Of a stretch of 11,195 nt of DNA, positions 1 to 11,195 are shown one piece after another. Made by a program: the position numbers and the translations under genes. Source of the stretch: a virus (taxonomy: Duplodnaviria; Heunggongvirae; Uroviricota; Caudoviricetes); IMG/VR virus record IMGVR_UViG_648276671_000015; one strand, 5' to 3'. Each line of letters opens with the position of its first letter. Within the stretch, counting starts at the first letter, position 1. Below the pieces are notes generated by a model, which had not been told where the DNA came from, did not search any database, and saw only the letters and a program-made list of their open reading frames with translations.

Positions 1-417
1 TTGTTTATATGTTTTAAAGGTTCCATAATCCGGGGCTGGTAATCCGGCATCGTTTGTGTTTCCTCTTTTGATAATGTCAGTGCCACTATTTACCCAGCTT
101 TCATCAAAATAGAAATTAATCGTTGCATCAGTCACAATCGTGGATCTTGACGGTAATCCATGAGCATGATCCTCCGTTGCATACCCCTGAATACTTAAAA
201 TAGAGCGACCTGTATCAATCCCCCGCCCGTCATCCCAGCCACGAATAAATTCACCGCGTAAATCAGGCAATTTATTAGTCGGGTAAGCCTTTGTCAGTTC
301 CGGGTATTCTTCAGCAGAAAAAGCCGCACCATTGCATTTCAGCCAGCCTGTTGGCGGAGTGGCTGAAGGCCACGGAACAGGCACCCCAACGGGTAATGCC
401 GAACCTTCTCCCAAACC
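1..417 (-). CDS. Partial tail-fibre variable (receptor-binding) cassette in silent inverted orientation; reads leftward from the crossover site and runs off the window start
   Basis: Minus-strand frame is open for about 139 codons from the gix-like site to position 1. Translation (...INVGLGEGSALPVGVPVPWPSATPPTGWLKCNGAAFSAEEYPELTKAYPTNKLPDLRGEFIRGWDDGRG...EDHAHG...) carries the tail-collar/tail-fibre motifs (GWLxCNG, YPEL, LPDLRGxF, HxH) seen in Mu S, P1 S and e14 StfE variable parts. It is opposite in strand to the tail operon and abuts the invertase, as for Mu Sv'. Confidence 0.6.
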
Positions 418-431
418 AACGTTTATGAAAA
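406..431. promoter_or_regulatory. gix/hix/pix-type 26-bp recombination (crossover) site for the adjacent serine invertase
   Basis: TTCTCCCAAACC-AA-CGTTTATGAAAA: two imperfect 12-bp inverted half-sites around a central AA, matching about 9/12 per half to the recalled hixL/gix consensus (TTCTTGAAAACC-AA-GGTTTTTGATAA). It lies 56 bp upstream of the invertase start and inside the tail-fibre cassette reading frame. Confidence 0.55.
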
Positions 432-486
432 TGCAGAGATAATGGCTAACTGGCATCATCCCCGGTTTTTATTCAGGGGATTGATC

Positions 487-1053
487 ATGCTTATTGGCTA
501 TGTACGCGTGTCAACAAATGACCAGAACACCGATTTGCAACGTAATGCACTGAACTGCGCGGGATGTGAGCGGATTTTTGAGGATAAAATCAGTGGCACT
601 AAGTCCGACAGACCGGGGCTTAAAAAACTGCTCAGGACACTATCGGCAGGAGACACTCTGGTTGTCTGGAAGCTGGACAGGTTGGGGCGCAGTATGCGGC
701 ATCTTGTTACGCTGATAGAAGAGTTGCGCCAGCGTGGCGTGAATTTCCGAAGCCTGACTGACAGTATTGATACCAGTACCCCAATGGGCCGTTTCTTTTT
801 TCATGTTATGGGTGCTCTGGCTGAAATGGAACGCGAACTGATAGTTGAACGTACCAGGGCAGGGCTGGCTGCAGCTCGTGCCAAAGGCAGAGTAGGTGGA
901 CGCCGTCCTAAGTTGACCACCGAACAGTGGGCACAGATTGGGCGTTTACTTGAGGCCGGAGAATCAAGACAGCGTATTGCACTGATTTTTGATGTAGGCG
1001 TTTCTACTATTTATAGAAAATTTCCGGCAAATAAGAGCAATGAATCTCCCTGA
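487..1053 (+). CDS. pin: Serine DNA invertase of the Pin/Gin/Hin/Cin family (188 aa)
   Basis: Starts MLIGYVRVSTNDQNTDLQ with the catalytic serine in the YVRVSTxDQ motif, then LVVWKLDRLGRS and GRFFFHVMGALAEMERELI, and a C-terminal helix-turn-helix; near-identical in motif layout to e14 PinE / Mu Gin. GGGGA Shine-Dalgarno 8 nt upstream of the ATG at 487. The tracked ORF start at 442 is an upstream in-frame extension. Confidence 0.92.
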   Translation: MLIGYVRVSTNDQNTDLQRNALNCAGCERIFEDKISGTKSDRPGLKKLLRTLSAGDTLVVWKLDRLGRSMRHLVTLIEELRQRGVNFRSLTDSIDTSTPMGRFFFHVMGALAEMERELIVERTRAGLAAARAKGRVGGRRPKLTTEQWAQIGRLLEAGESRQRIALIFDVGVSTIYRKFPANKSNESP

Positions 1054-1195: not shown

Positions 1196-2355
1196 ATGGC
1201 TCAGGATTACCACCACGGGGTGCGCGTTGTTGAAGTCAACGAAGGCACCCGATCCATTACCACGGTGAGCACCGCCATCGTGGGTATGGTCTGCACGGGC
1301 GATGATGCCGATGCAAAAATGTTTCCTCTTAATAAACCCGTGCTGATCACTGATGTGCTGACTGCCAGCGGTAAAGCGGGTGAGTCAGGCACGCTGGCCC
1401 GTTCGCTGGATGCCATCGCTGACCAGGCAAAACCCGTGACCGTTGTTGTGCGTGTGCCGCAGGGTGAAACGGAAGAAGAAACCACGACCAATATCATCGG
1501 CGCAGTGACTGCTGAAGGTAAAAAACAGGCATGAAAGCTCTGTTATCTGCCCAGTCACAGCTCGGCGTTAAACCGCGCATTCTCGGCGTGCCAGGCCATG
1601 ATAACAAAGCCGTTGCGACTGAGTTGCTGAGCGTGGCGCAAAGCCTGCGTGGGTTTGCTTACCTGTCAGCGTATGGCTGCAAGACAGTGCAGGAGGCGAT
1701 CACTTACCGTGAAAACTTCAGTCAGCGTGAAGGAATGCTGATCTGGCCCGACTTTACTGGCTGGGACACGGTGCTGAATGCCGAAGCAACGGCTTATGCC
1801 ACCGCCCGTGCGCTTGGTCTGCGCGCCAAAATTGACGAGCAGACCGGATGGCACAAAAGCCTGTCCAACGTGGGCGTTAACGGTGTCACCGGAATTTCTG
1901 CTGATGTGTTCTGGGATCTGCAGGACCCGGCAACCGATGCAGGTCTGCTGAACCAGAACGACGTCACCACGCTTGTGCGTAAAGACGGTTTCCGCTTCTG
2001 GGGTTCCCGCTGCCTGAGTGATGACCCGCTCTTTGCCTTCGAAAACTACACCCGCACGGCACAGGTGCTGGCGGACACAATGGCAGAAGCGCACATGTGG
2101 GCGGTGGACAAACCGCTGAACCCGTCGCTGGCCCGCGACATTATCGAAGGTATCCGCGCCAAAATGCGCAGCCTGGTCAGTCAGGGCTATCTCATTGGGG
2201 GTGATTGCTGGCTGGACGAGTCGGTGAACGATAAAGACACCCTGAAAGCCGGAAAACTCACCATCGACTACGACTACACGCCAGTGCCGCCACTTGAAAA
2301 TCTGATGCTGCGCCAGCGCATCACCGATCAGTACCTGGTGAATTTCGCCAGCTAG
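1196..2355 (+). pseudogene. P2 gpFI-like contractile tail sheath protein, frame broken by an apparent 1-bp loss in an A6 run (1520-1525); two ORFs 1196-1534 and 1531-2355
   Basis: N-terminal ORF (MAQDYHHGV...) and C-terminal ORF (...KPRILGVPG...GFRFWG...[13 protein letters not shown]) together span a P2 FI-like sheath. Adding one A to the run restores ...[10 protein letters not shown]..., which lines up with the P2 FI junction as I recall it (...GQYTGLKAML...). AGGAGG Shine-Dalgarno at 1181-1186. Confidence 0.8.
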
Positions 2356-2946: not shown

Positions 2947-3249
2947 ATGAGCGATAAACAGACTGAAAAGACCATTCAACTGGATACCCCCATCAAGCGC
3001 GGTAAAACAGAAATCACCGAAATTGTGCTGCGTAAACCGCAGTCCGGTGCGCTGCGCGGTACACGCCTGCAGGCGATTATGGATATGGATGTGAACGCGA
3101 TGATGACCGTGATCCCCCGCATCTCCAGCCCGGCACTGACTGCACAGGAAATTGCAGAGATGGACCCGGCAGATCTCACTGCCATGTCGGTTGAGGTTGT
3201 CACTTTTTTGTTGAAGAAGTCGGTGCTTGCCGGTTTACCGACAGCCTGA
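2947..3249 (+). CDS. P2 gpE-like tail assembly chaperone (100 aa)
   Basis: Small acidic ORF between tube and tape-measure genes with a TTTTTTG slippery heptamer near its 3' end, as in P2 E and the lambda G analogue; AGGA Shine-Dalgarno 8 nt upstream. Confidence 0.85.
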   Translation: MSDKQTEKTIQLDTPIKRGKTEITEIVLRKPQSGALRGTRLQAIMDMDVNAMMTVIPRISSPALTAQEIAEMDPADLTAMSVEVVTFLLKKSVLAGLPTA

Positions 3250-3383
3250 CGGTTGACGATCTGGTGGCAGATATCGCCACCATTTTTCACTGGCCGCCAT
3301 CCGTTACTGACGTTATGCCGCTGACCGAAGTGCTGGAATGGCGGTATAAAGCGATTCAGAGAAGCGGGGCCAACGATGAGTGA
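2947..3383 (+). CDS. E+E' frameshift fusion product (about 145 aa) made by -1 slippage at 3204-3210
   Basis: The -1 frame after the heptamer reads ...VEEVGACRFTDSLTVDDLVADIATIFHWPPSVTDVMPLTEVLEWRYKAIQRSGANDE and ends overlapping the tape-measure start, the same layout and size as P2 E+E' (about 142 aa). Confidence 0.65.
3204..3210 (+). other. Programmed -1 ribosomal frameshift slippery heptamer T-TTT-TTG (E to E+E')
   Basis: Heptamer is in the X-XXY-YYZ register of the E frame (codons ACT-TTT-TTG = T-F-L); the -1 frame is open from here to a TGA at 3381-3383. Confidence 0.65.
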
Positions 3384-6300
3384 TAACAACCTGCGCCTGC
3401 AGGTCATTCTTAATGCGGTTGACAAACTCACCCGCCCATTCCGTGCTGCACAGGTCAGTTCGAAAGAGCTGGCTGGCGCAATCAGAAACTCCCGTGACGC
3501 ATTAAAGCAACTCAATCAGGCGGGTAACAGCCTGGAAAAATTTCGCAAGCTGCAGGCCGATAACAAGAAGTTAGGCGACAGGCTGAACTATGCCAGACAG
3601 AAGGCTAATTTGCTTAGCTCTGAGCTGGAGGCGATGGAACAACCATCACAACGGCACCTTGTGGCTTTAGGTCGGCAAACACTGGCAGTCCAACGCCTGG
3701 AAGAGCAACAAAAATATTTGCAGAAGCAAACGGCGCTTGTGCGTGCAGAACTGTACCGGGCGGGAATTTCTGCGAAAGATGATGCGGGAGCAACTGCCCG
3801 TTTAGCCCGTGAAACATCACGTTATAACCAGGAATTGTCGAAACAGGAGGTGCGGCTGAAGCGACTGGGGGAAGCTCAGCGCAGGATGAATGCAGCGCGT
3901 GCCAGTTATGCCCGTTCGCTGGAGGTGCGCGATCGTATTGCAGGAGCCGGAGCCACTACCACGGCTGCAGGGTTGGCAATGGGGACGCCAGTGATGGCGG
4001 CAGTAAAAAGCTATACCAGCATAGAAGATGCCATGAAAGGTGTGGCAAAGCAGGTCAATGGTCTGCGTGACGATAATGGCAACCGCACTGCACGTTTTTA
4101 TGAAATGCAGGATGCCATCAAGGCTGCCAGCGAACAGTTGCCGATGGAAAACGGTGCTGTGGACTTCGCTGCACTGGTTGAAGGTGGTGCGCGCATGAAC
4201 GTCGCAAACCCTGACGACAGCTGGGAAGACCAGAAACGTGATCTGCTGGCCTTCGCCAGCACAGCAGCAAAGGCGGCAACAGCCTTTGAGCTGCCAGCGG
4301 ATGAACTGTCAGAAAGTCTGGGGAAAATCGCCCAGCTCTACAAAATCCCTACCCGCAATATTGAACAGCTCGGTGATGCGCTGAACTATCTGGATGATAA
4401 CGCCATGTCGAAAGGGGCAGACATTATTGATGTTATGCAACGTCTGGGCGGTGTGGCGGACCGTCTGGATTATCGTAAAGCGGCGGCGCTGGGTTCCACC
4501 TTTCTGACACTGGGCGCTGCGCCGGAGGTTGCAGCCAGTGCAGCAAACGCGATGGTGCGTGAATTGTCCATTGCCACCATGCAGAGCAAGAGTTTCTTTG
4601 AAGGGATGAATCTGCTGAAACTCAATCCTGAAGTGATTGAAAAGCAGATGACGAAGGATGCGATGGGAACCATCCAGCGCGTGCTGGAGAAGGTGAACGC
4701 ACTGCCGCAGGACAAGCGTCTGTCTGCCATGACCATGTTGTTTGGTAAAGAGTTTGGCGATGACGCGGCGAAACTGGCAAACAACCTGCCGGAACTGCAG
4801 CGCCAGTTAAAGCTGACAGCGGGCAATGATGCGCTCGGTTCCATGCAGAAAGAATCCGACATCAACAAGGACTCACTTTCTGCTCAGTGGTTGCTGGTCA
4901 AAACCGGAGCGCAGAACACCTTCAGCAGCCTGGGCGAAACGCTGCGCCAGCCGCTGATGGATATTCTGTACACGGTGAAAAGCGTCACGGGGGCGTTGCG
5001 TCGCTGGGTGGAAGCTAACCCGGAACTGACGGGCACACTGATGAAAGCGGCGGCTGTTGTGGCTGCGGTTACCGTGGGCCTCGGCACCTTAGCGGTGGTG
5101 TTAGCTGCAGTGCTGGGGCCGCTGGCAGTCATCCGTCTGGGGTTCTCTGTGCTGGGTATCAAAACGTTACCTTCCGTTACGGCAGCAGTAACTCGAACCA
5201 GCAGCGCGTTGTCCTGGCTGGCTGGCGCACCACTGGCACTGCTGCGACGCGGGCTTGCTTCATCCGGCAACGCCGCAGGTTTACTTACTGCGCCGTTGTC
5301 GTCTTTGCGCCGCACGGCATCACTGACGGGAAATGTCCTGAAAACTGTAGCAGGTGCGCAGGTTGCACTTTTGCGGTCTGGATTATCCGGTTTACGTGCT
5401 GTTGCTGTGATGTTTATGAATCCTCTGGCGGTACTGCGCGGTGGACTGGCCGCCGCAGGCACGGTGCTGCGAGTACTGGCATCTGGTCCACTGGCGATGC
5501 TGCGCGTTGCCCTGTATGCCGTATCTGGTCTGTTAGGTGCTCTGCTCAGTCCGATAGGTCTTGTGGTTACTGCACTGGCGGGCGTGGCGCTGGTTGTCTG
5601 GAAATACTGGCAACCCATCACCGCATTTCTTGGTGGCGTGGTGGAAGGATTCAAAGCGGCGGCAGGTCCCGTCAGTGCAGCATTCGAACCGCTTATGCCC
5701 GTGTTCCAGTGGATTGGCGACAAAGTACAGGCGTTGTGGGGCTGGTTTACTGATCTGCTGACGCCCGTTAAGTCGACCTCTGCCGAACTGCAGAGTGCAG
5801 CGGCAATGGGGCGGCGATTCGGGGAGGCACTGGCGGAAGGGCTGAATATGGTCATGCATCCGCTGGACTCCCTGAAATCCGGCGTTTCCTGGTTGCTGGA
5901 GAAGCTCGGCATTGTCAGTAAAGAGGTCGCAAAGGCAAAACTGCCGGAAAGCGTGACGCGTCAGCAACCTGCGACGGTGAATGCAGACGGTAAAGTGATG
6001 ATGCCATCGGGTGGTTTTCCATCATGGGGATATGGCTTTGCGGGGATGTATGGCAGCGGCGGGTATATCCCGCGCGGGCAGTTTGGCATCGTCGGTGAAA
6101 ACGGGCCGGAAATTGTTAACGGCCCGGCAAATGTGACCAGCCGGAGAAATACAGCTGCACTGGCTGCCGTTGTTGCCGGAATGATGGGCGTTGCTGCCGC
6201 GCCAGCAGAGCTTCCACCGTTGCACCCTTTGGCACTTCCCGCGAAAGGTGGAGAAGCAATTGTGAGTCGCGCAGCCACTGTGCCGCTCGTTCAACGGATT

Positions 6301-6453
6301 GAGGCACCGACGCAGATCATCATTCAGACGCAGCCAGGACAAAGTGCGCAGGATATTGCGCGGGAGGTGGCACGCCAGCTTGATGAACGTGAACGCAGGC
6401 TGAAGGCAAAAGCCAGGAGTAACTACAGCGATCAGGGGGGATACGACGCATGA
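3376..6453 (+). CDS. Tail tape measure protein, P2 gpT-like (1025 aa)
   Basis: Very long ORF right after E/E'; coiled-coil-rich N-terminal half, central hydrophobic periodic repeats, Gly-rich C-terminal region; follows the chaperone gene as tape-measure genes always do. Confidence 0.9.
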   Translation: MSDNNLRLQVILNAVDKLTRPFRAAQVSSKELAGAIRNSRDALKQLNQAGNSLEKFRKLQADNKKLGDRLNYARQKANLLSSELEAMEQPSQRHLVALGRQTLAVQRLEEQQKYLQKQTALVRAELYRAGISAKDDAGATARLARETSRYNQELSKQEVRLKRLGEAQRRMNAARASYARSLEVRDRIAGAGATTTAAGLAMGTPVMAAVKSYTSIEDAMKGVAKQVNGLRDDNGNRTARFYEMQDAIKAASEQLPMENGAVDFAALVEGGARMNVANPDDSWEDQKRDLLAFASTAAKAATAFELPADELSESLGKIAQLYKIPTRNIEQLGDALNYLDDNAMSKGADIIDVMQRLGGVADRLDYRKAAALGSTFLTLGAAPEVAASAANAMVRELSIATMQSKSFFEGMNLLKLNPEVIEKQMTKDAMGTIQRVLEKVNALPQDKRLSAMTMLFGKEFGDDAAKLANNLPELQRQLKLTAGNDALGSMQKESDINKDSLSAQWLLVKTGAQNTFSSLGETLRQPLMDILYTVKSVTGALRRWVEANPELTGTLMKAAAVVAAVTVGLGTLAVVLAAVLGPLAVIRLGFSVLGIKTLPSVTAAVTRTSSALSWLAGAPLALLRRGLASSGNAAGLLTAPLSSLRRTASLTGNVLKTVAGAQVALLRSGLSGLRAVAVMFMNPLAVLRGGLAAAGTVLRVLASGPLAMLRVALYAVSGLLGALLSPIGLVVTALAGVALVVWKYWQPITAFLGGVVEGFKAAAGPVSAAFEPLMPVFQWIGDKVQALWGWFTDLLTPVKSTSAELQSAAAMGRRFGEALAEGLNMVMHPLDSLKSGVSWLLEKLGIVSKEVAKAKLPESVTRQQPATVNADGKVMMPSGGFPSWGYGFAGMYGSGGYIPRGQFGIVGENGPEIVNGPANVTSRRNTAALAAVVAGMMGVAAAPAELPPLHPLALPAKGGEAIVSRAATVPLVQRIEAPTQIIIQTQPGQSAQDIAREVARQLDERERRLKAKARSNYSDQGGYDA

Positions 6454-6935
6454 TGATGGTGCTGGGATTGTACGTGTTTATGCTGCGCACCGTTCCGTAT
6501 CAGGAACTGCAGTATCAACGCAGCTGGCGACATGCGGCAAACAGTCGGGTAAACCGACGTCCGTCCACGCAGTTTCTGGGACCGGAAAACGACATGCTGA
6601 CGCTTTCCGGTGTTCTTATGCCGGAGATAACAGGCGGCAGGCTGTCGTTGCTGGCACTGGAGCAGATGGCAGAACAGGGGAAAGCATGGCCCCTGATTGA
6701 AGGCAGCGGCACGATTTACGGCATGTATGTGATTGAGGGACTGAATCAGACTAAAACGGAGTTTTTCCGCGACGGTATGCCGCGCCGGATTGAGTTCACC
6801 CTGTCGCTCAAACGAGTGGATGAATCCCTGTCCGATATGTTCGGTGATCTCAGTGCGCAACTGAATAATCTGCAGGACACGGCAACGTCTGCCTTAAGCG
6901 ATATCAGTAAAACGGTGGGAGGGCTGCTGTCGTGA
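6450..6935 (+). CDS. P2 gpU-like tail protein (161 aa)
   Basis: ATGA overlap with the T stop; GGGGGG Shine-Dalgarno 9 nt upstream; begins MMMVLGLYVFMLRT..., resembling the P2 U N-terminus as recalled (MMLALGMFVF...); size matches P2 U (about 159 aa). Confidence 0.85.
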   Translation: MMMVLGLYVFMLRTVPYQELQYQRSWRHAANSRVNRRPSTQFLGPENDMLTLSGVLMPEITGGRLSLLALEQMAEQGKAWPLIEGSGTIYGMYVIEGLNQTKTEFFRDGMPRRIEFTLSLKRVDESLSDMFGDLSAQLNNLQDTATSALSDISKTVGGLLS

Positions 6936-8032
6936 ATTTCAGCTCTGAACTGCTTAACAAAGGCAACAAAACTCCCGCATTCAGCATCAGTATTGAGGGC
7001 AGGGATATCACCACTGTGCTGGATAACCGCCTGATGAGTTTGACGCTGACGGATAACCGGGGCTTTGAAGCGGACCAGCTTGATCTGGAGCTGGATGACG
7101 CTGACGGAAAAATCGTGCTGCCGCGCCGTGGTGCGGTTATTACGCTGGCGCTGGGCTGGAAGGGGCAGCCGCTTTTCCCGAAAGGGGCATTCACGGTGGA
7201 CGAGATTGAACACACTGGCGCACCGGACCGCCTGACTATCCGGGCGCGAAGTGCTGATTTTCGGGAAACGCTGAATACTCGCCGTGAAAAATCGTGGCAC
7301 AAGACCACTGTCGGGGAAGTGGTGAAGGAAATAGCCGCGCGTCACAAGCTGAAGATGGCACTGGGTAAAGACCTGTCGGATAAGCCCGTGGAACATATAG
7401 ACCAGACTAATGAGAGTGACGGCAGTTTTCTGATGCGGCTGGCGCGCCAGTACGGTGCTATTGCGTCGGTGAAAAATGGCAATCTGTTATTCATTCGGCA
7501 GGGACAGGGTAAAAGCGCCAGCGGTAAACCACTGCCGGTTATCACTATCACACGTAAGGACGGCGACAGTCACCGCTTTACCCTGGCAGATCGCGGAGCT
7601 TACACGGGCGTAATTGCCAGCTGGTTGCATACCCGCGAACCCGCGAAGAAAGAAAGCACCACGGTGAAGCGTAAGCGCAGGACTAAGAAGCAGAAGAAAG
7701 AGCCGGAAGCGAAGCAGGGCGATTACCTGGTGGGTACGGATGAAAACGTGCTGGTACTTAATCGCACCTATGCCAATCGGAGTAACGCCGAACGGGCAGC
7801 GAAAATGCAGTGGGAACGCCTGCAACGCGGCGTTGCGTCATTCTCGCTACAACTGGCGGAAGGTCGGGCAGATCTCTACACGGAAATGCCAGTGAAAGTC
7901 AGTGGTTTTAAACAGCCGATAGATGATGCGGAATGGACCATTACGACTCTGACACATACCGTCAGCCCGGATAACGGTTTTACAACCAGTCTGGAGCTTG
8001 AAGTGAGGATTGATGATTTCGAAATGGAATGA
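6932..8032 (+). CDS. P2 gpD-like tail protein (366 aa), GTG start
   Basis: GTGA start/stop overlap with U; GGAGGG Shine-Dalgarno; motifs (TLTDNRGFEADQLDLELDD, IRARSADFRETLNTRREKSWH, Lys-rich linker, WTIT..H) typical of P2 D. Confidence 0.85.
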   Translation: MNFSSELLNKGNKTPAFSISIEGRDITTVLDNRLMSLTLTDNRGFEADQLDLELDDADGKIVLPRRGAVITLALGWKGQPLFPKGAFTVDEIEHTGAPDRLTIRARSADFRETLNTRREKSWHKTTVGEVVKEIAARHKLKMALGKDLSDKPVEHIDQTNESDGSFLMRLARQYGAIASVKNGNLLFIRQGQGKSASGKPLPVITITRKDGDSHRFTLADRGAYTGVIASWLHTREPAKKESTTVKRKRRTKKQKKEPEAKQGDYLVGTDENVLVLNRTYANRSNAERAAKMQWERLQRGVASFSLQLAEGRADLYTEMPVKVSGFKQPIDDAEWTITTLTHTVSPDNGFTTSLELEVRIDDFEME

Positions 8033-8122: not shown

Positions 8123-8341
8123 ATGATGATTTGCCCACTATGTGGAAGTGCCGCCCATACTCGCAGCAGTTTTCAGGTATCTTCATTGACCAAAGAGCGT
8201 TACAACCAGTGCCAGAACATTAACTGCAGCCATACTTTTGTTACCCATGAAACTTTTGTTCGTTCGATTGCAACGCCAAAAGAGTCAAATCCGGTTCAGC
8301 CGCATCCAATGAAATCAGGACAGGTGGCGCTCTCTCTTTGA
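8123..8341 (+). CDS. ogr: Ogr-type zinc-finger late-gene transcriptional activator (72 aa)
   Basis: MMICPLCGSAAHTR...YNQCQNINCSHTF has the C-x2-C...C-x4-C zinc-binding pattern and the size of P2 Ogr (72 aa). The tracked ORF start at 8090 is an upstream extension; the ATG at 8123 has GGGGA about 11 nt upstream. Confidence 0.85.
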   Translation: MMICPLCGSAAHTRSSFQVSSLTKERYNQCQNINCSHTFVTHETFVRSIATPKESNPVQPHPMKSGQVALSL

Positions 8342-8576
8342 CGCTGCCGCCATTTTGTCGCCATCGTTAAAAAACAGTGCTTCTAACATCATGATTTTAA
8401 AAGGCATAAATTTTAGGCAACAAAAAACCCACCAACCTTGAACCGAAATGGCGGGGTTGATGGGCTCCACAAAATGGGGACATCAAAGAAAAGCAGTGGC
8501 ATTAATTAAGACTGATGCCCTGCGGAAAAGTTCTGCGGTTGTGCAAAAAAATTTCATTTTCAGGGCAACTTCAGTT

Positions 8577-10262
8577 TTATCCTAATCCTGGCCATACCAT
8601 GACGATGATTGTCCCTGCCAGCGTCAGCAGGACGTTGGCGATTGCGTAAGTGCCCGCATAGCCCAACGCCGGGATGTTACTGCGAGCTGTATCACTGATG
8701 ATCTCCATTGCCGGCGCGCAGGTGCGTGCGCCCATCATTGCGCCGAACAACAGTGCGCGGTTCATTCGCAATACATAAGCACCGAACAAGAAACAGATAA
8801 CCACGGGCACCAGACTGACAATCAATCCGGCAATCAACATTTGACCGCCAATCGCGCCCAGGCCGTTATTAATACCGCTACCAGCGCTCAGACCAACGCC
8901 TGCCATAAACACCATCAAGCCGAACTCCTTCACCATGCTTAATGCACCCTGCGGAATGTAACCGAAGGTCGGGTGGTTAGCACGCATAAAGCCCAGCATA
9001 ATTCCGGCGAATAACAACCCGGCAGCGTTCCCCATACCGAAACTGAATGTGCTGAACTGGAAGGTGATCATCCCGATCATTAGCCCAATCACAAAGAAGG
9101 CGCAGAATGCCAGCAAGTCAGTGACCTGGCTGTGAATCGAGATAAAGCCGATGCGATCGGCGATGGTTTTTACGCGGCGGGCATCGCCGCTGACTTGTAA
9201 AACGTCACCTTTGTTAAGCACGACGTTGTCATCAATCGGCATCTCAATCTGGCTACGTATGACGCGGTTAAGGAAGCAACCGTGATCGGTCAACTTCAGT
9301 TGTGCCAGGCGTTTGCCAACAGCGTTATGGTTTTTAACGACCACTTCTTCAGTGACGATACGCATGTCGAGAAGGTCACGATCGAAAACTTCTTTGCCAT
9401 TACGGAAACTGGGATCGAGTCGGGCGTGGGCGTCGGGGTAGCCTACCAACGCTATTTCATCGCCCATTTGTAGCACGGCATCACCGTCTGGATTTGCCAG
9501 AATCCCGTTACGCCGAATACGTTCAATGTAGCAGCCGGTTTGTCGATAAATACCCAGTTCACGCAGATTTTTGCCGTCGGTCCAGGCTACCAGCTCCGGG
9601 CCGACGCGGTAGGCGCGGATCACCGGCAAATAAACTTTACGGTTGGCATCTGTGTCCAGGCCACGTTCGCGGGCGATTTGCTGGGCGCTGGTCTGTAAGT
9701 CCTGATGCTGCAATTTCGGCAAGTAACGCGCACCAACAATCAAACTCACCAGACCGATTAAATAGGTTAAGGCATACCCGAGGCTCAGATTATCCAGTGC
9801 CAGTGAGAGCTGCCTGCTTTCCATGCCGGAATGACGCAGTGTATCGCCAGCACCGACCAAAACCGGTGTTGACGTCATAGAGCCTGCTAACATACCGGCC
9901 GTCAGGCCAATATCCCAGCCAAACAGCTTACCTAACCCTAAGGCGATCACCAGCGCACTGCCAACCATCACCAGTGCTAACATTAGGTAATTTTTCCCAT
10001 CGCGAAAAAAAATGGAAAAAAAGTTCGGTCCGGCTTCGACCCCGACGCAGAAAATAAACAGCATAAAGCCAAGATTAAGCGCGTCGGTGTTAATGCTGAA
10101 ATGTTGTTGGCCTAATAACAGCGATACGACTAAAACGCCAATGGAATTACCCAGTTGGATCGAACCAAGTCGTAATTTCCCGAGACATAGCCCAAGCGCG
10201 AGGACCACAAATAATAACAGAATGTAATTCCCATTTAACAATTCGGCGACGTTTATATTCAC
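8577..10262 (-). CDS. ybjL: YbjL, putative AAE-family transporter (561 aa; two transmembrane halves flanking cytoplasmic TrkA-C-like domains), GTG start
   Basis: Full-length 561-aa membrane protein matching E. coli YbjL in length and sequence as I recall it; gene neighbourhood (ybjL-ybjM-grxA) is the conserved E. coli arrangement. Confidence 0.9.
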
Positions 10263-10531: not shown

Positions 10532-10908
10532 GTGAAACATAAACAACGTTGGGCGGGGGCAATCTGCTGTTTTGTCCTCTTCATTGTGGTGTGCCTTTTT
10601 CTGGCGACGCATATGAAAGGCGCTTTTCGGGCTGCCGGGCATCCTGAAATCGGCTTGCTGTTTTTCATTCTTCCTGGAGCAGTTGCCAGCTTCTTTTCAC
10701 AGCGTAGAGAAGTCCTGAAACCTCTGTTTGGCGCAATGCTGGCGGCACCCTGTTCAATGCTTATTATGCGGCTGTTTTTTCACCGACGCGCTCATTCTGG
10801 CAAGAGCTGGCATGGTTATTAAGTGCGGTGTTCTGGTGTGCGCTGGGGGCACTGTGTTTCTTATTTATCAGTAGTTTGTTTAAACCACAGCACAGAAAAA
10901 ATCAATAA
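10532..10908 (+). pseudogene. ybjM: ybjM inner-membrane protein, frame broken by an apparent 1-bp loss in a T6 run (10775-10780); tracked ORF ends early at 10822 (96 aa)
   Basis: GTG start with AGGAGGA Shine-Dalgarno. After the T-run, the +1 frame reads SPTRSFWQELAWLLSAVFWCALGALCFLFISSLFKPQHRKNQ* and ends at 10906-10908 directly before the terminator hairpin. Adding one T gives exactly 125 aa plus stop, the length I recall for E. coli YbjM. Confidence 0.7.
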
Positions 10909-10927
10909 AGCCCTCAACGCGAGGGCT
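10909..10927 (-). terminator. Rho-independent terminator hairpin for grxA, shared by convergent ybjM
   Basis: AGCCCTC-AACGC-GAGGGCT, a 7-bp stem with 5-nt loop, 10 nt past the grxA stop; on the minus strand it is followed by a U-rich tract (plus 10895-10908 is A-rich). Confidence 0.65.
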
Positions 10928-10937
10928 TGTCAGACGA

Positions 10938-11195
10938 TCAGGCGTCCAGATTCTCTTTCACCCATGCAGCAAAATCGGTATAGCCGCCGATATGTTGCTG
11001 ATCGACAAAAATCTGCGGCACGGTTTCTACGGGTTTACCTGCCTTTTGTTGTAGATCTTCTTTAGTGATCCCTTCCGCACGAATATCAACATACTGATAC
11101 TGAAAATCATCGCGTTCATTGCTCAATTTCTCAGCCAGATCTTTTGCACGCACACAGTAAGGGCAACCCGGACGACCAAAAATAACGGTTTGCAT
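10938..11195 (-). CDS. grxA: Glutaredoxin 1 (85 aa), complete; the window ends on its start codon
   Basis: MQTVIFGRPGCPYCVRAKDLAEKL... has the CPYC glutaredoxin active site and the exact length of E. coli GrxA. Confidence 0.95.
   Translation of the reverse strand: MQTVIFGRPGCPYCVRAKDLAEKLSNERDDFQYQYVDIRAEGITKEDLQQKAGKPVETVPQIFVDQQHIGGYTDFAAWVKENLDA

What the first reader, a model, noticed from the sequence alone, without database searches (positions are those of the whole stretch)
10532..10908. Host ybjM broken by a 1-bp change in a T6 homopolymer; second homopolymer frameshift in the window
The tracked ybjM ORF stops at 96 aa, but the +1 frame after the T-run at 10775-10780 encodes a hydrophobic helix-like tail and ends just before the terminator; one extra T restores a 125-aa protein. 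Two independent single-base homopolymer losses in 11 kb (here and in FI) are more economically explained by systematic homopolymer under-calling than by two real pseudogenes, which affects how much weight the FI lesion deserves.
Basis: partly seen in the sequence, partly recalled or inferred. Interest (0 to 1): 0.45.

Follow-up and report, generated by a model that had tools for sequence, protein, structure and literature searches.

The report
Probable sequencing error breaking ybjM
The "broken" ybjM gene is real in this sequence, but it is almost certainly a one-base homopolymer miscall in an old draft assembly of E. coli TA280 rather than a true pseudogene, so it is ordinary and should be treated as an artefact.

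Summary
ybjM (10532-10822) stops at 96 aa because the T-run at 10775-10780 has 6 T. K-12, the closest relatives and the finished O104:H4 genome all have 7 T and a 125-aa YbjM. Adding one T gives a protein 100% identical to the canonical YbjM.

The window is an exact substring of the E. coli TA280 draft (GCA_000176655.2, Broad Institute). Against the nearest complete genome it has only two indels in 11.2 kb. Both are -1 changes in 7-base runs: A7->A6 in tail sheath FI and T7->T6 in ybjM.

The T6 allele is absent from 5,426 complete RefSeq E. coli genomes and from 113 metagenome contigs. It recurs in error-prone assemblies:
- 8 of 10 other carriers inspected have 1-10 further single-base deletions within 12 kb, mostly in runs of 5-8.
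- The Ion Torrent draft of O104:H4 LB226692 carries it, while the finished genome of that outbreak clone does not.
- The FI lesion recurs in 2010-2012 drafts, including a sibling Broad assembly.

Verdict: most likely a homopolymer under-call (about 0.85). A real recent frameshift cannot be excluded without reads or Sanger data. Interest is low.

The parts
10532..10822 (+). ybjM as it reads in the window: GTG start, 96-aa truncated product (81+2 native residues, then HRRAHSGKSWHGY*)
   Evidence: Pfam PF11045 YbjM covers profile positions 1-83 of 117.
10775..10780 (+). T6 homopolymer. It is T7 in K-12, E300010, WP4-S18-ESBL-08, strain WAT, O104:H4 2011C-3493 and 113 metagenome contigs.
10780..10908 (+). 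Out-of-frame 3' part of ybjM: 42 codons plus stop, identical at protein level to the wild-type YbjM C-terminus, which contains the last hydrophobic helix
   Evidence: The repaired protein matches PF11045 over positions 1-116 of 117.
10908..10928 (.). GC-rich hairpin between convergent ybjM and grxA. The T-tail is on the minus (grxA) side.
1520..1525 (+). A6 homopolymer in tail sheath gene FI (A7 in relatives); the companion lesion
1196..1534 (+). FI N-terminal fragment, 112 aa. The exact product is seen on 69 contigs (111 blocks) elsewhere.
1531..2355 (+). FI C-terminal fragment, 274 aa. Adding one A restores a 386-aa sheath protein.
10005..10022 (+). A8 and A7 runs inside ybjL. They are intact here but shortened in other error-prone assemblies, where ybjL is split into 468 + 92/110 aa.
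8545..8551 (+). A7 run (intergenic, at the ybjL 3' end), intact here

Best explanation
The T6 run in ybjM is a one-base homopolymer under-call in the consensus of the E. coli TA280 draft assembly (GCA_000176655.2, scaffold GL884339.1). The strain most likely carries the normal T7 allele and makes the normal 125-aa inner-membrane protein YbjM. The A6 run in the P2-like tail sheath gene FI is most likely the same kind of error. Shown here: the source of the window, the nature and uniqueness of the two indels, the absence of both alleles from finished genomes, and their recurrence in error-prone assemblies. Inferred: that TA280's own consensus is wrong at these two sites, and (from my own knowledge, not verified here) that the Broad E. 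coli drafts of that date were 454/Newbler assemblies.
For: 1. The window is an exact substring of L013 (6626-17820), which is TA280. TA280 is a Broad Institute project genome (PMC4422515).
2. Against the nearest complete genome the only indels in 11.2 kb are A7->A6 and T7->T6. No run of 5 or 6 is affected. A further 5 kb of host DNA downstream shows no other frameshift.
3. The repaired YbjM is 100% identical to WP_000681108.1, with no change in the 43 out-of-frame codons.
4. A T6-specific 39-mer finds nothing in 5,426 complete RefSeq E. coli genomes. The same query finds all 11 T6 loci locally with BLAST's low-complexity (DUST) filter on. All 113 metagenome contigs have T7.
5. The exact 96-aa product still occurs on 139 contigs. 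Of 10 inspected, 8 carry 1-10 further 1-bp deletions in 12 kb, mostly in runs of 5-8.
6. Natural control: the Ion Torrent PGM draft of O104:H4 LB226692 has this 96-aa product (EGR75243.1). Its authors had to correct homopolymers in 51 of 1,144 core genes (PMC3140518). The finished genome of the same outbreak clone has T7 and an intact ybjM.
7. The FI A6 allele is absent from complete RefSeq genomes (sensitivity checked). It recurs on diverse prophages. Five of the 10 places shown are 2010-2012 drafts. One is the sibling Broad assembly GCA_000176615.2, which also has A8->A7 in ybjL.
8. Ten modern assemblies with the identical D protein have a full-length YbjM, and all nine in which FI was called have the 390-aa form.
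Against: - No reads, quality values or platform record for TA280 could be inspected.
- Only 2 of the 5 runs of 7 or more are shortened, and the A8 is intact. The error, if any, is stochastic rather than systematic.
- Two T6 carriers (GCA_005399445.1, Logan ERR3650463) have otherwise clean surroundings and are seen in 2-3 samples each. Genuine T6 alleles therefore probably exist in nature.
- The TA280 prophage shows signs of real decay: an IS3-family element in the tail-fibre region and a CAG->TAG substitution near the end of FI. This makes a real FI frameshift less implausible.
Confidence: 0.85

Rival explanations
1. The T6 allele is real. A recent slipped-strand deletion in the T7 tract truncated YbjM to 96 aa in TA280, removing the last transmembrane helix and making ybjM a young pseudogene. 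The FI lesion would then be a separate real event in a decaying prophage.
For: Runs of seven are natural slippage hotspots (established knowledge). T6 occurs in two assemblies with no other lesion nearby, each seen in more than one sample (L003, L005). It sits on at least two ybjM haplotypes, so it arises repeatedly. The prophage carries an IS element and a nonsense substitution, so it may be truly defective. ybjM is a non-essential gene of unknown function.
Against: T6 is found in 0 of 5,426 finished genomes and 0 of 113 metagenome contigs, so the prior for a real allele in any one strain is below about 0.1%. There is no downstream decay at all. It coincides with a second -1 lesion in a run of 7 only 9 kb away, in an old draft. 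The same lesion is demonstrably produced by Ion Torrent in the O104:H4 clone.
Confidence: 0.12
2. The T tract is a functional switch. Either it is a phase-variable (contingency) homopolymer toggling ybjM on and off, or full-length YbjM is made from the T6 allele by ribosomal or transcriptional slippage.
For: The site is a homopolymer within a coding region, and the full C-terminal reading frame is preserved after the shift.
Against: The population is essentially monomorphic for T7. Contingency loci show both states commonly. The in-frame T7 arrangement is the conserved one, so no recoding is needed. T6 is shorter than the tracts known to support efficient transcriptional slippage (established knowledge, 9 or more A/T).
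Confidence: 0.02

Closest known systems
Homopolymer indel errors of flow-based (454, Ion Torrent) and long-read consensus assemblies
   Same: A -1 length error confined to runs of 7 or more. It produces apparent frameshifts in otherwise perfectly conserved genes. The same sites recur in unrelated assemblies. The documented case for this very site is Ion Torrent LB226692 versus finished 2011C-3493.
   Different: The platform of TA280 was not verifiable here. The lesion density in the 22 kb available is modest (2 events), and the longest run (A8) is correct.
E. coli K-12 ybjM (b0848, NP_415369.1; Pfam PF11045), putative inner membrane protein
   Same: Same locus between ybjL and grxA. Same GTG start. 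125-aa product after repair, identical to WP_000681108.1.
   Different: As written in the window it is one T short and encodes 96 aa.
Genuine slipped-strand pseudogenes in host-restricted E. coli/Shigella lineages
   Same: A single-base change in a homopolymer causing a frameshift.
   Different: Real pseudogenes are shared by clonal relatives and are usually accompanied by further decay. Here no relative shares it, and the downstream frame is pristine.

Membership tests
YbjM family (PF11045) | Significant match to the Pfam YbjM profile | tested here: met
   Truncated product: 117.8 bits, profile positions 1-83 of 117. Repaired product: 178.4 bits, positions 1-116 of 117. Cut-off is 25 bits.
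YbjM family (PF11045) | Conserved position between ybjL and grxA | tested here: met
   Same order as in K-12 and all annotated relatives.
YbjM family (PF11045) | Intact 125-aa reading frame | tested here: not met
   96 aa as written. The frame is met only after adding one T.
Homopolymer under-call artefact | The indel is one base within a long homopolymer, and the flanks are otherwise identical to relatives | tested here: met
   T7->T6. There is 1 nt difference in 378 versus E300010.
Homopolymer under-call artefact | Other lesions of the same type in the same assembly | tested here: met
   A7->A6 in FI is the only other indel in the window. Only about 22 kb of the assembly could be examined.
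Homopolymer under-call artefact | The same lesion recurs in unrelated error-prone assemblies and is absent from finished genomes | tested here: met
   Absent from 5,426 complete genomes and 113 metagenome contigs. 8 of 10 carriers have further 1-bp deletions, mostly in homopolymer runs. LB226692 (Ion Torrent) carries it while 2011C-3493 (finished) does not.
Homopolymer under-call artefact | The assembly was made on a homopolymer-error-prone platform | not testable with these tools
   No assembly metadata was available, and paper searches gave no platform. From my own knowledge, Broad E. coli drafts of 2010 were 454/Newbler; this is unverified.
Homopolymer under-call artefact | Reads or an orthogonal method show the true length is 7 | not testable with these tools
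   No read access. No second TA280 assembly is in the collection: the tape-measure exact look-up found one contig only.
Genuine pseudogene | Allele shared by clonal relatives or independent assemblies of the lineage | tested here: inconclusive
   No close relative of TA280 was found. The best host match is 99.5-99.7% identical and has T7.
Genuine pseudogene | Secondary decay downstream of the lesion | tested here: not met
   All 43 downstream codons encode the wild-type residues.
Phase-variable contingency locus | Both tract lengths common in the population | tested here: not met
   T7 is effectively fixed.

The most novel reading that the evidence does not exclude
The T7 tract of ybjM is a genuine recurrent slippage hotspot. 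TA280, like the otherwise clean assemblies GCA_005399445.1 and ERR3650463, would then truly carry a young loss-of-function allele that removes YbjM's last transmembrane helix. That would hint at occasional selection against, or neutrality of, this uncharacterised membrane protein.
Probability: 0.1. Interest if true: 0.2.

Novelty: not a real feature. Interest (0 to 1): 0.07.

Why it matters
It matters mainly for housekeeping. ybjM, and probably the prophage sheath gene FI, should not be scored as pseudogenes in TA280. The FI lesion should not be used as evidence that this P2-like prophage is defective. Frameshifts at runs of 7 or more in this and sibling 2010-era drafts should be treated as suspect. 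It also shows that exact-product look-ups across assemblies can flag recurrent platform artefacts at specific sites.

Tried and rejected
- I looked for the TA280 sequencing platform by searching papers for the assembly or scaffold accession, for TA280, for the Broad project URL with '454', and for sibling strain names. This established only the strain's origin and the Broad source.\n- I looked for a second TA280 assembly or a clonal relative. The exact tape-measure look-up gave one contig only. The exact D-protein look-up gave common, non-clonal carriers, all intact. YbjL is not distinctive.\n- The 72-mer search could not separate T6-plus-SNP from T7, so I replaced it with a 39-mer design that T7 genomes cannot seed and validated that design locally.\n- A T7 positive control failed locally, probably because of DUST masking of the T7 run. 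It was not used.\n- I considered a programmed frameshift or phase variation at the T tract. I rejected both because T7 in frame is the conserved state.\n- I considered ybjN and grxA as further lesions, because they are missing from the TA280 gene list. I rejected this because there are no indels there and grxA is intact in the window.

Full report
**What is in the sequence.** The window holds the right end of a P2-like prophage followed by host genes. The prophage part comprises:
- invertase, 442-1053
- tail sheath FI, split at 1196-1534 and 1531-2355
- tube FII, 2377-2892
- E, 2947-3249
- tape measure, 3376-6453
- U, 6450-6935
- D, 6932-8032
- ogr, about 8123-8341

The host part comprises rybB (8419-8497, minus strand), ybjL (8577-10262, minus strand), ybjM (from 10532) and grxA (10938-11195, minus strand).

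The ybjM ORF starts at GTG 10532 and stops at 10822 after 96 codons. The run at 10775-10780 is T6. Read from 10780, the sequence encodes SPTRSFWQELAWLLSAVFWCALGALCFLFISSLFKPQHRKNQ and stops at 10906-10908. A hairpin at 10908-10928 follows directly; its T-tail is on the grxA strand.

**Comparison with references.** K-12 MG1655 (NP_415369.1), strain E300010, WP4-S18-ESBL-08, strain WAT and O104:H4 2011C-3493 all have T7 and a 378-nt gene. Adding one T to the window gives a 125-aa protein 100% identical to WP_000681108.1, with only 1 nucleotide difference from E300010. Pfam PF11045 covers profile positions 1-83 of 117 in the truncated product and 1-116 of 117 in the repaired one. The last strongly hydrophobic segment, centred on residues 101-110, is what the truncation removes.

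**Indels across the window.** Against the nearest complete genome (NZ_AP022095.1: 97% identity, 339 mismatches) there are exactly two indels in 11,195 bases: A7->A6 at 1520-1525 in FI and T7->T6 in ybjM. The reference has five runs of 7 or more in this stretch. Two are shortened here, and three (A7 at 8545, A8 at 10005, A7 at 10016) are intact. None of the runs of 5 or 6 differs.

**Source of the window.** An exact look-up of the tape-measure protein found a single contig, GCA_000176655.2 scaffold GL884339.1. The window is an exact substring of it (L013 6626-17820), beginning just after an N gap. The protein record names the strain as E. coli TA280. TA280 is an Australian animal isolate whose genome came from the Broad Institute E. 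coli project (PMC4422515). I could not retrieve the sequencing platform. From my own knowledge the Broad drafts of that date were 454/Newbler assemblies, but this is unverified. A further 5 kb of TA280 host DNA downstream shows no other frameshift, only a 15-bp in-frame ybjC indel.

**Is T6 found in good genomes?** I used a 39-mer centred on the run, designed so that T7 genomes cannot provide the 28-base seed. It finds nothing in 5,426 complete RefSeq E. coli genomes. Locally, with the same program and filter, it recovers all eleven T6-bearing loci and none of the T7 loci. A metagenome scan with a pattern accepting either T6 or T7 returned 113 contigs, all T7. The analogous FI A6 39-mer also finds nothing in the complete genomes, although locally it detects 8 of 10 independent A6 loci.

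**Where the lesions do occur.** The exact 96-aa product is on 139 contigs (178 index blocks). Of ten loci shown, eight carry 1-10 further 1-bp deletions within 12 kb, mostly in runs of 5-8. A typical example is ybjL split at its A8 run. Two loci (GCA_005399445.1 and Logan ERR3650463) are otherwise clean.

One named carrier is O104:H4 LB226692 (EGR75243.1). It was sequenced on the Ion Torrent PGM, and its authors corrected homopolymers by hand in 51 of 1,144 core genes (PMC3140518; see also PMC3320906). The finished genome of the same outbreak clone, 2011C-3493, has T7 and an intact ybjM. This is a natural control showing that this exact lesion is produced by a flow-based platform.

The FI 112-aa fragment is on 69 contigs (111 blocks). 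The prophages carrying it are diverse and sit at two integration sites. Five of the ten places shown are 2010-2012 drafts:
- GCA_000176615.2, a Broad sibling that also has A8->A7 in ybjL
- GCA_000190835.1
- GCA_000165655.2
- GCA_000225125.2
- GCA_000249975.2

At least two of the remaining five are assemblies with several other small indels. In contrast, ten modern assemblies with the identical D protein all have a full-length YbjM (125 aa, or 127 aa in one divergent locus), and all nine in which FI was called have the 390-aa form.

**Weighing the explanations.** A real T6 allele in any given strain has a prior well below 0.1%, given its absence from finished genomes and metagenomes. An under-call at a run of 7 in an old flow-based draft is common. 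The lack of any change in the 43 out-of-frame codons fits either an error or a very recent event. The companion -1 lesion 9 kb away favours an error.

Against the artefact reading:
- The A8 run is correct.
- The reads and the platform are unseen.
- T6 does appear in two clean assemblies on a different ybjM haplotype, so real slippage at this site probably happens sometimes.
- The TA280 prophage has an IS3-family element in its tail-fibre region and a CAG->TAG substitution four codons before the FI stop. A genuine FI frameshift is therefore somewhat more plausible than a genuine ybjM one.

I put the artefact at about 0.85 for ybjM and somewhat lower, about 0.75, for FI. Phase variation or recoding is rejected because T7 in frame is the fixed, conserved state.

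**Verdict.** The feature is most likely not biological. Interest is low, and the useful outcome is a caution about homopolymer frameshifts in this assembly.

Noticed in passing
window 8406-8497: A complete RybB sRNA gene (Rfam RF00110, 104 bits) lies at 8419-8497 on the minus strand. Homology to K-12 begins at 8406, 13 nt beyond the rybB 3' end. The P2-like prophage is therefore inserted between rcdA and rybB, right at the rybB terminator. 768 of 5,426 complete E. coli genomes have a match covering at least 80% of the window, i.e. a similar P2-like prophage end joined to ybjL.
   Followed up: partly
window 2353-2355: FI carries a CAG->TAG substitution four codons before the normal stop, removing the last 4 residues (QVSA). 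None of the seven other prophages compared has it. Because it is a substitution, it is unlikely to be a homopolymer artefact.
   Followed up: partly
window 3204-3210 and 3264-3383: A T6G sequence (CACTTTTTTGTTG) lies near the end of gene E, with the short GpE ORF downstream. This matches the known programmed -1 frameshift site of the P2 E/E+E' tail chaperone genes (my own knowledge). It is a genuine, functional T-run in the same window, and its length is unchanged relative to relatives.
   Followed up: no
L013 4021-6623 (upstream of the window): In TA280 the tail-fibre region holds an IS3-family element (rve and HTH_Tnp_1 genes at 4887-6100) flanked by two N gaps (4021-4886 and 6557-6623). The window starts immediately after the second gap. 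The prophage may be truly disrupted here.
   Followed up: no
window 1-1053: A serine-recombinase (invertase) ORF lies at 442-1053: 203 aa from this ATG, versus 188 aa annotated in relatives. Next to it is a minus-strand tail-fibre C-terminal cassette. Most relatives lose homology left of about 206-230, consistent with an invertible, variable tail-fibre segment.
   Followed up: no
window 10005-10022 (ybjL): The A8 and A7 runs inside ybjL are a second recurrent error site. Several long-read assemblies and the Broad sibling GCA_000176615.2 shorten them and split ybjL into 468 + 92/110 aa. TA280 has them correct.
   Followed up: yes
L013 18041 (ybjC, downstream of the window): A 15-bp in-frame deletion in ybjC relative to E300010 gives 90 rather than 95 aa. 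It looks like ordinary natural variation.
   Followed up: no
L003 and L005, position 10244: Two T6 ybjM carriers (GCA_005399445.1 and Logan ERR3650463) have no other homopolymer deletion within 12 kb and are seen in 2-3 samples each. They sit on two different ybjM haplotypes. They may be genuine natural T6 alleles.
   Followed up: partly
protein cluster of the truncated YbjM: The 90% cluster contains a 177-aa member (P0030) on 79 contigs and a second 96-aa variant (P0029) on 160 contigs. The origin of the 177-aa form, perhaps a fusion or a different frameshift, was not examined.
   Followed up: no
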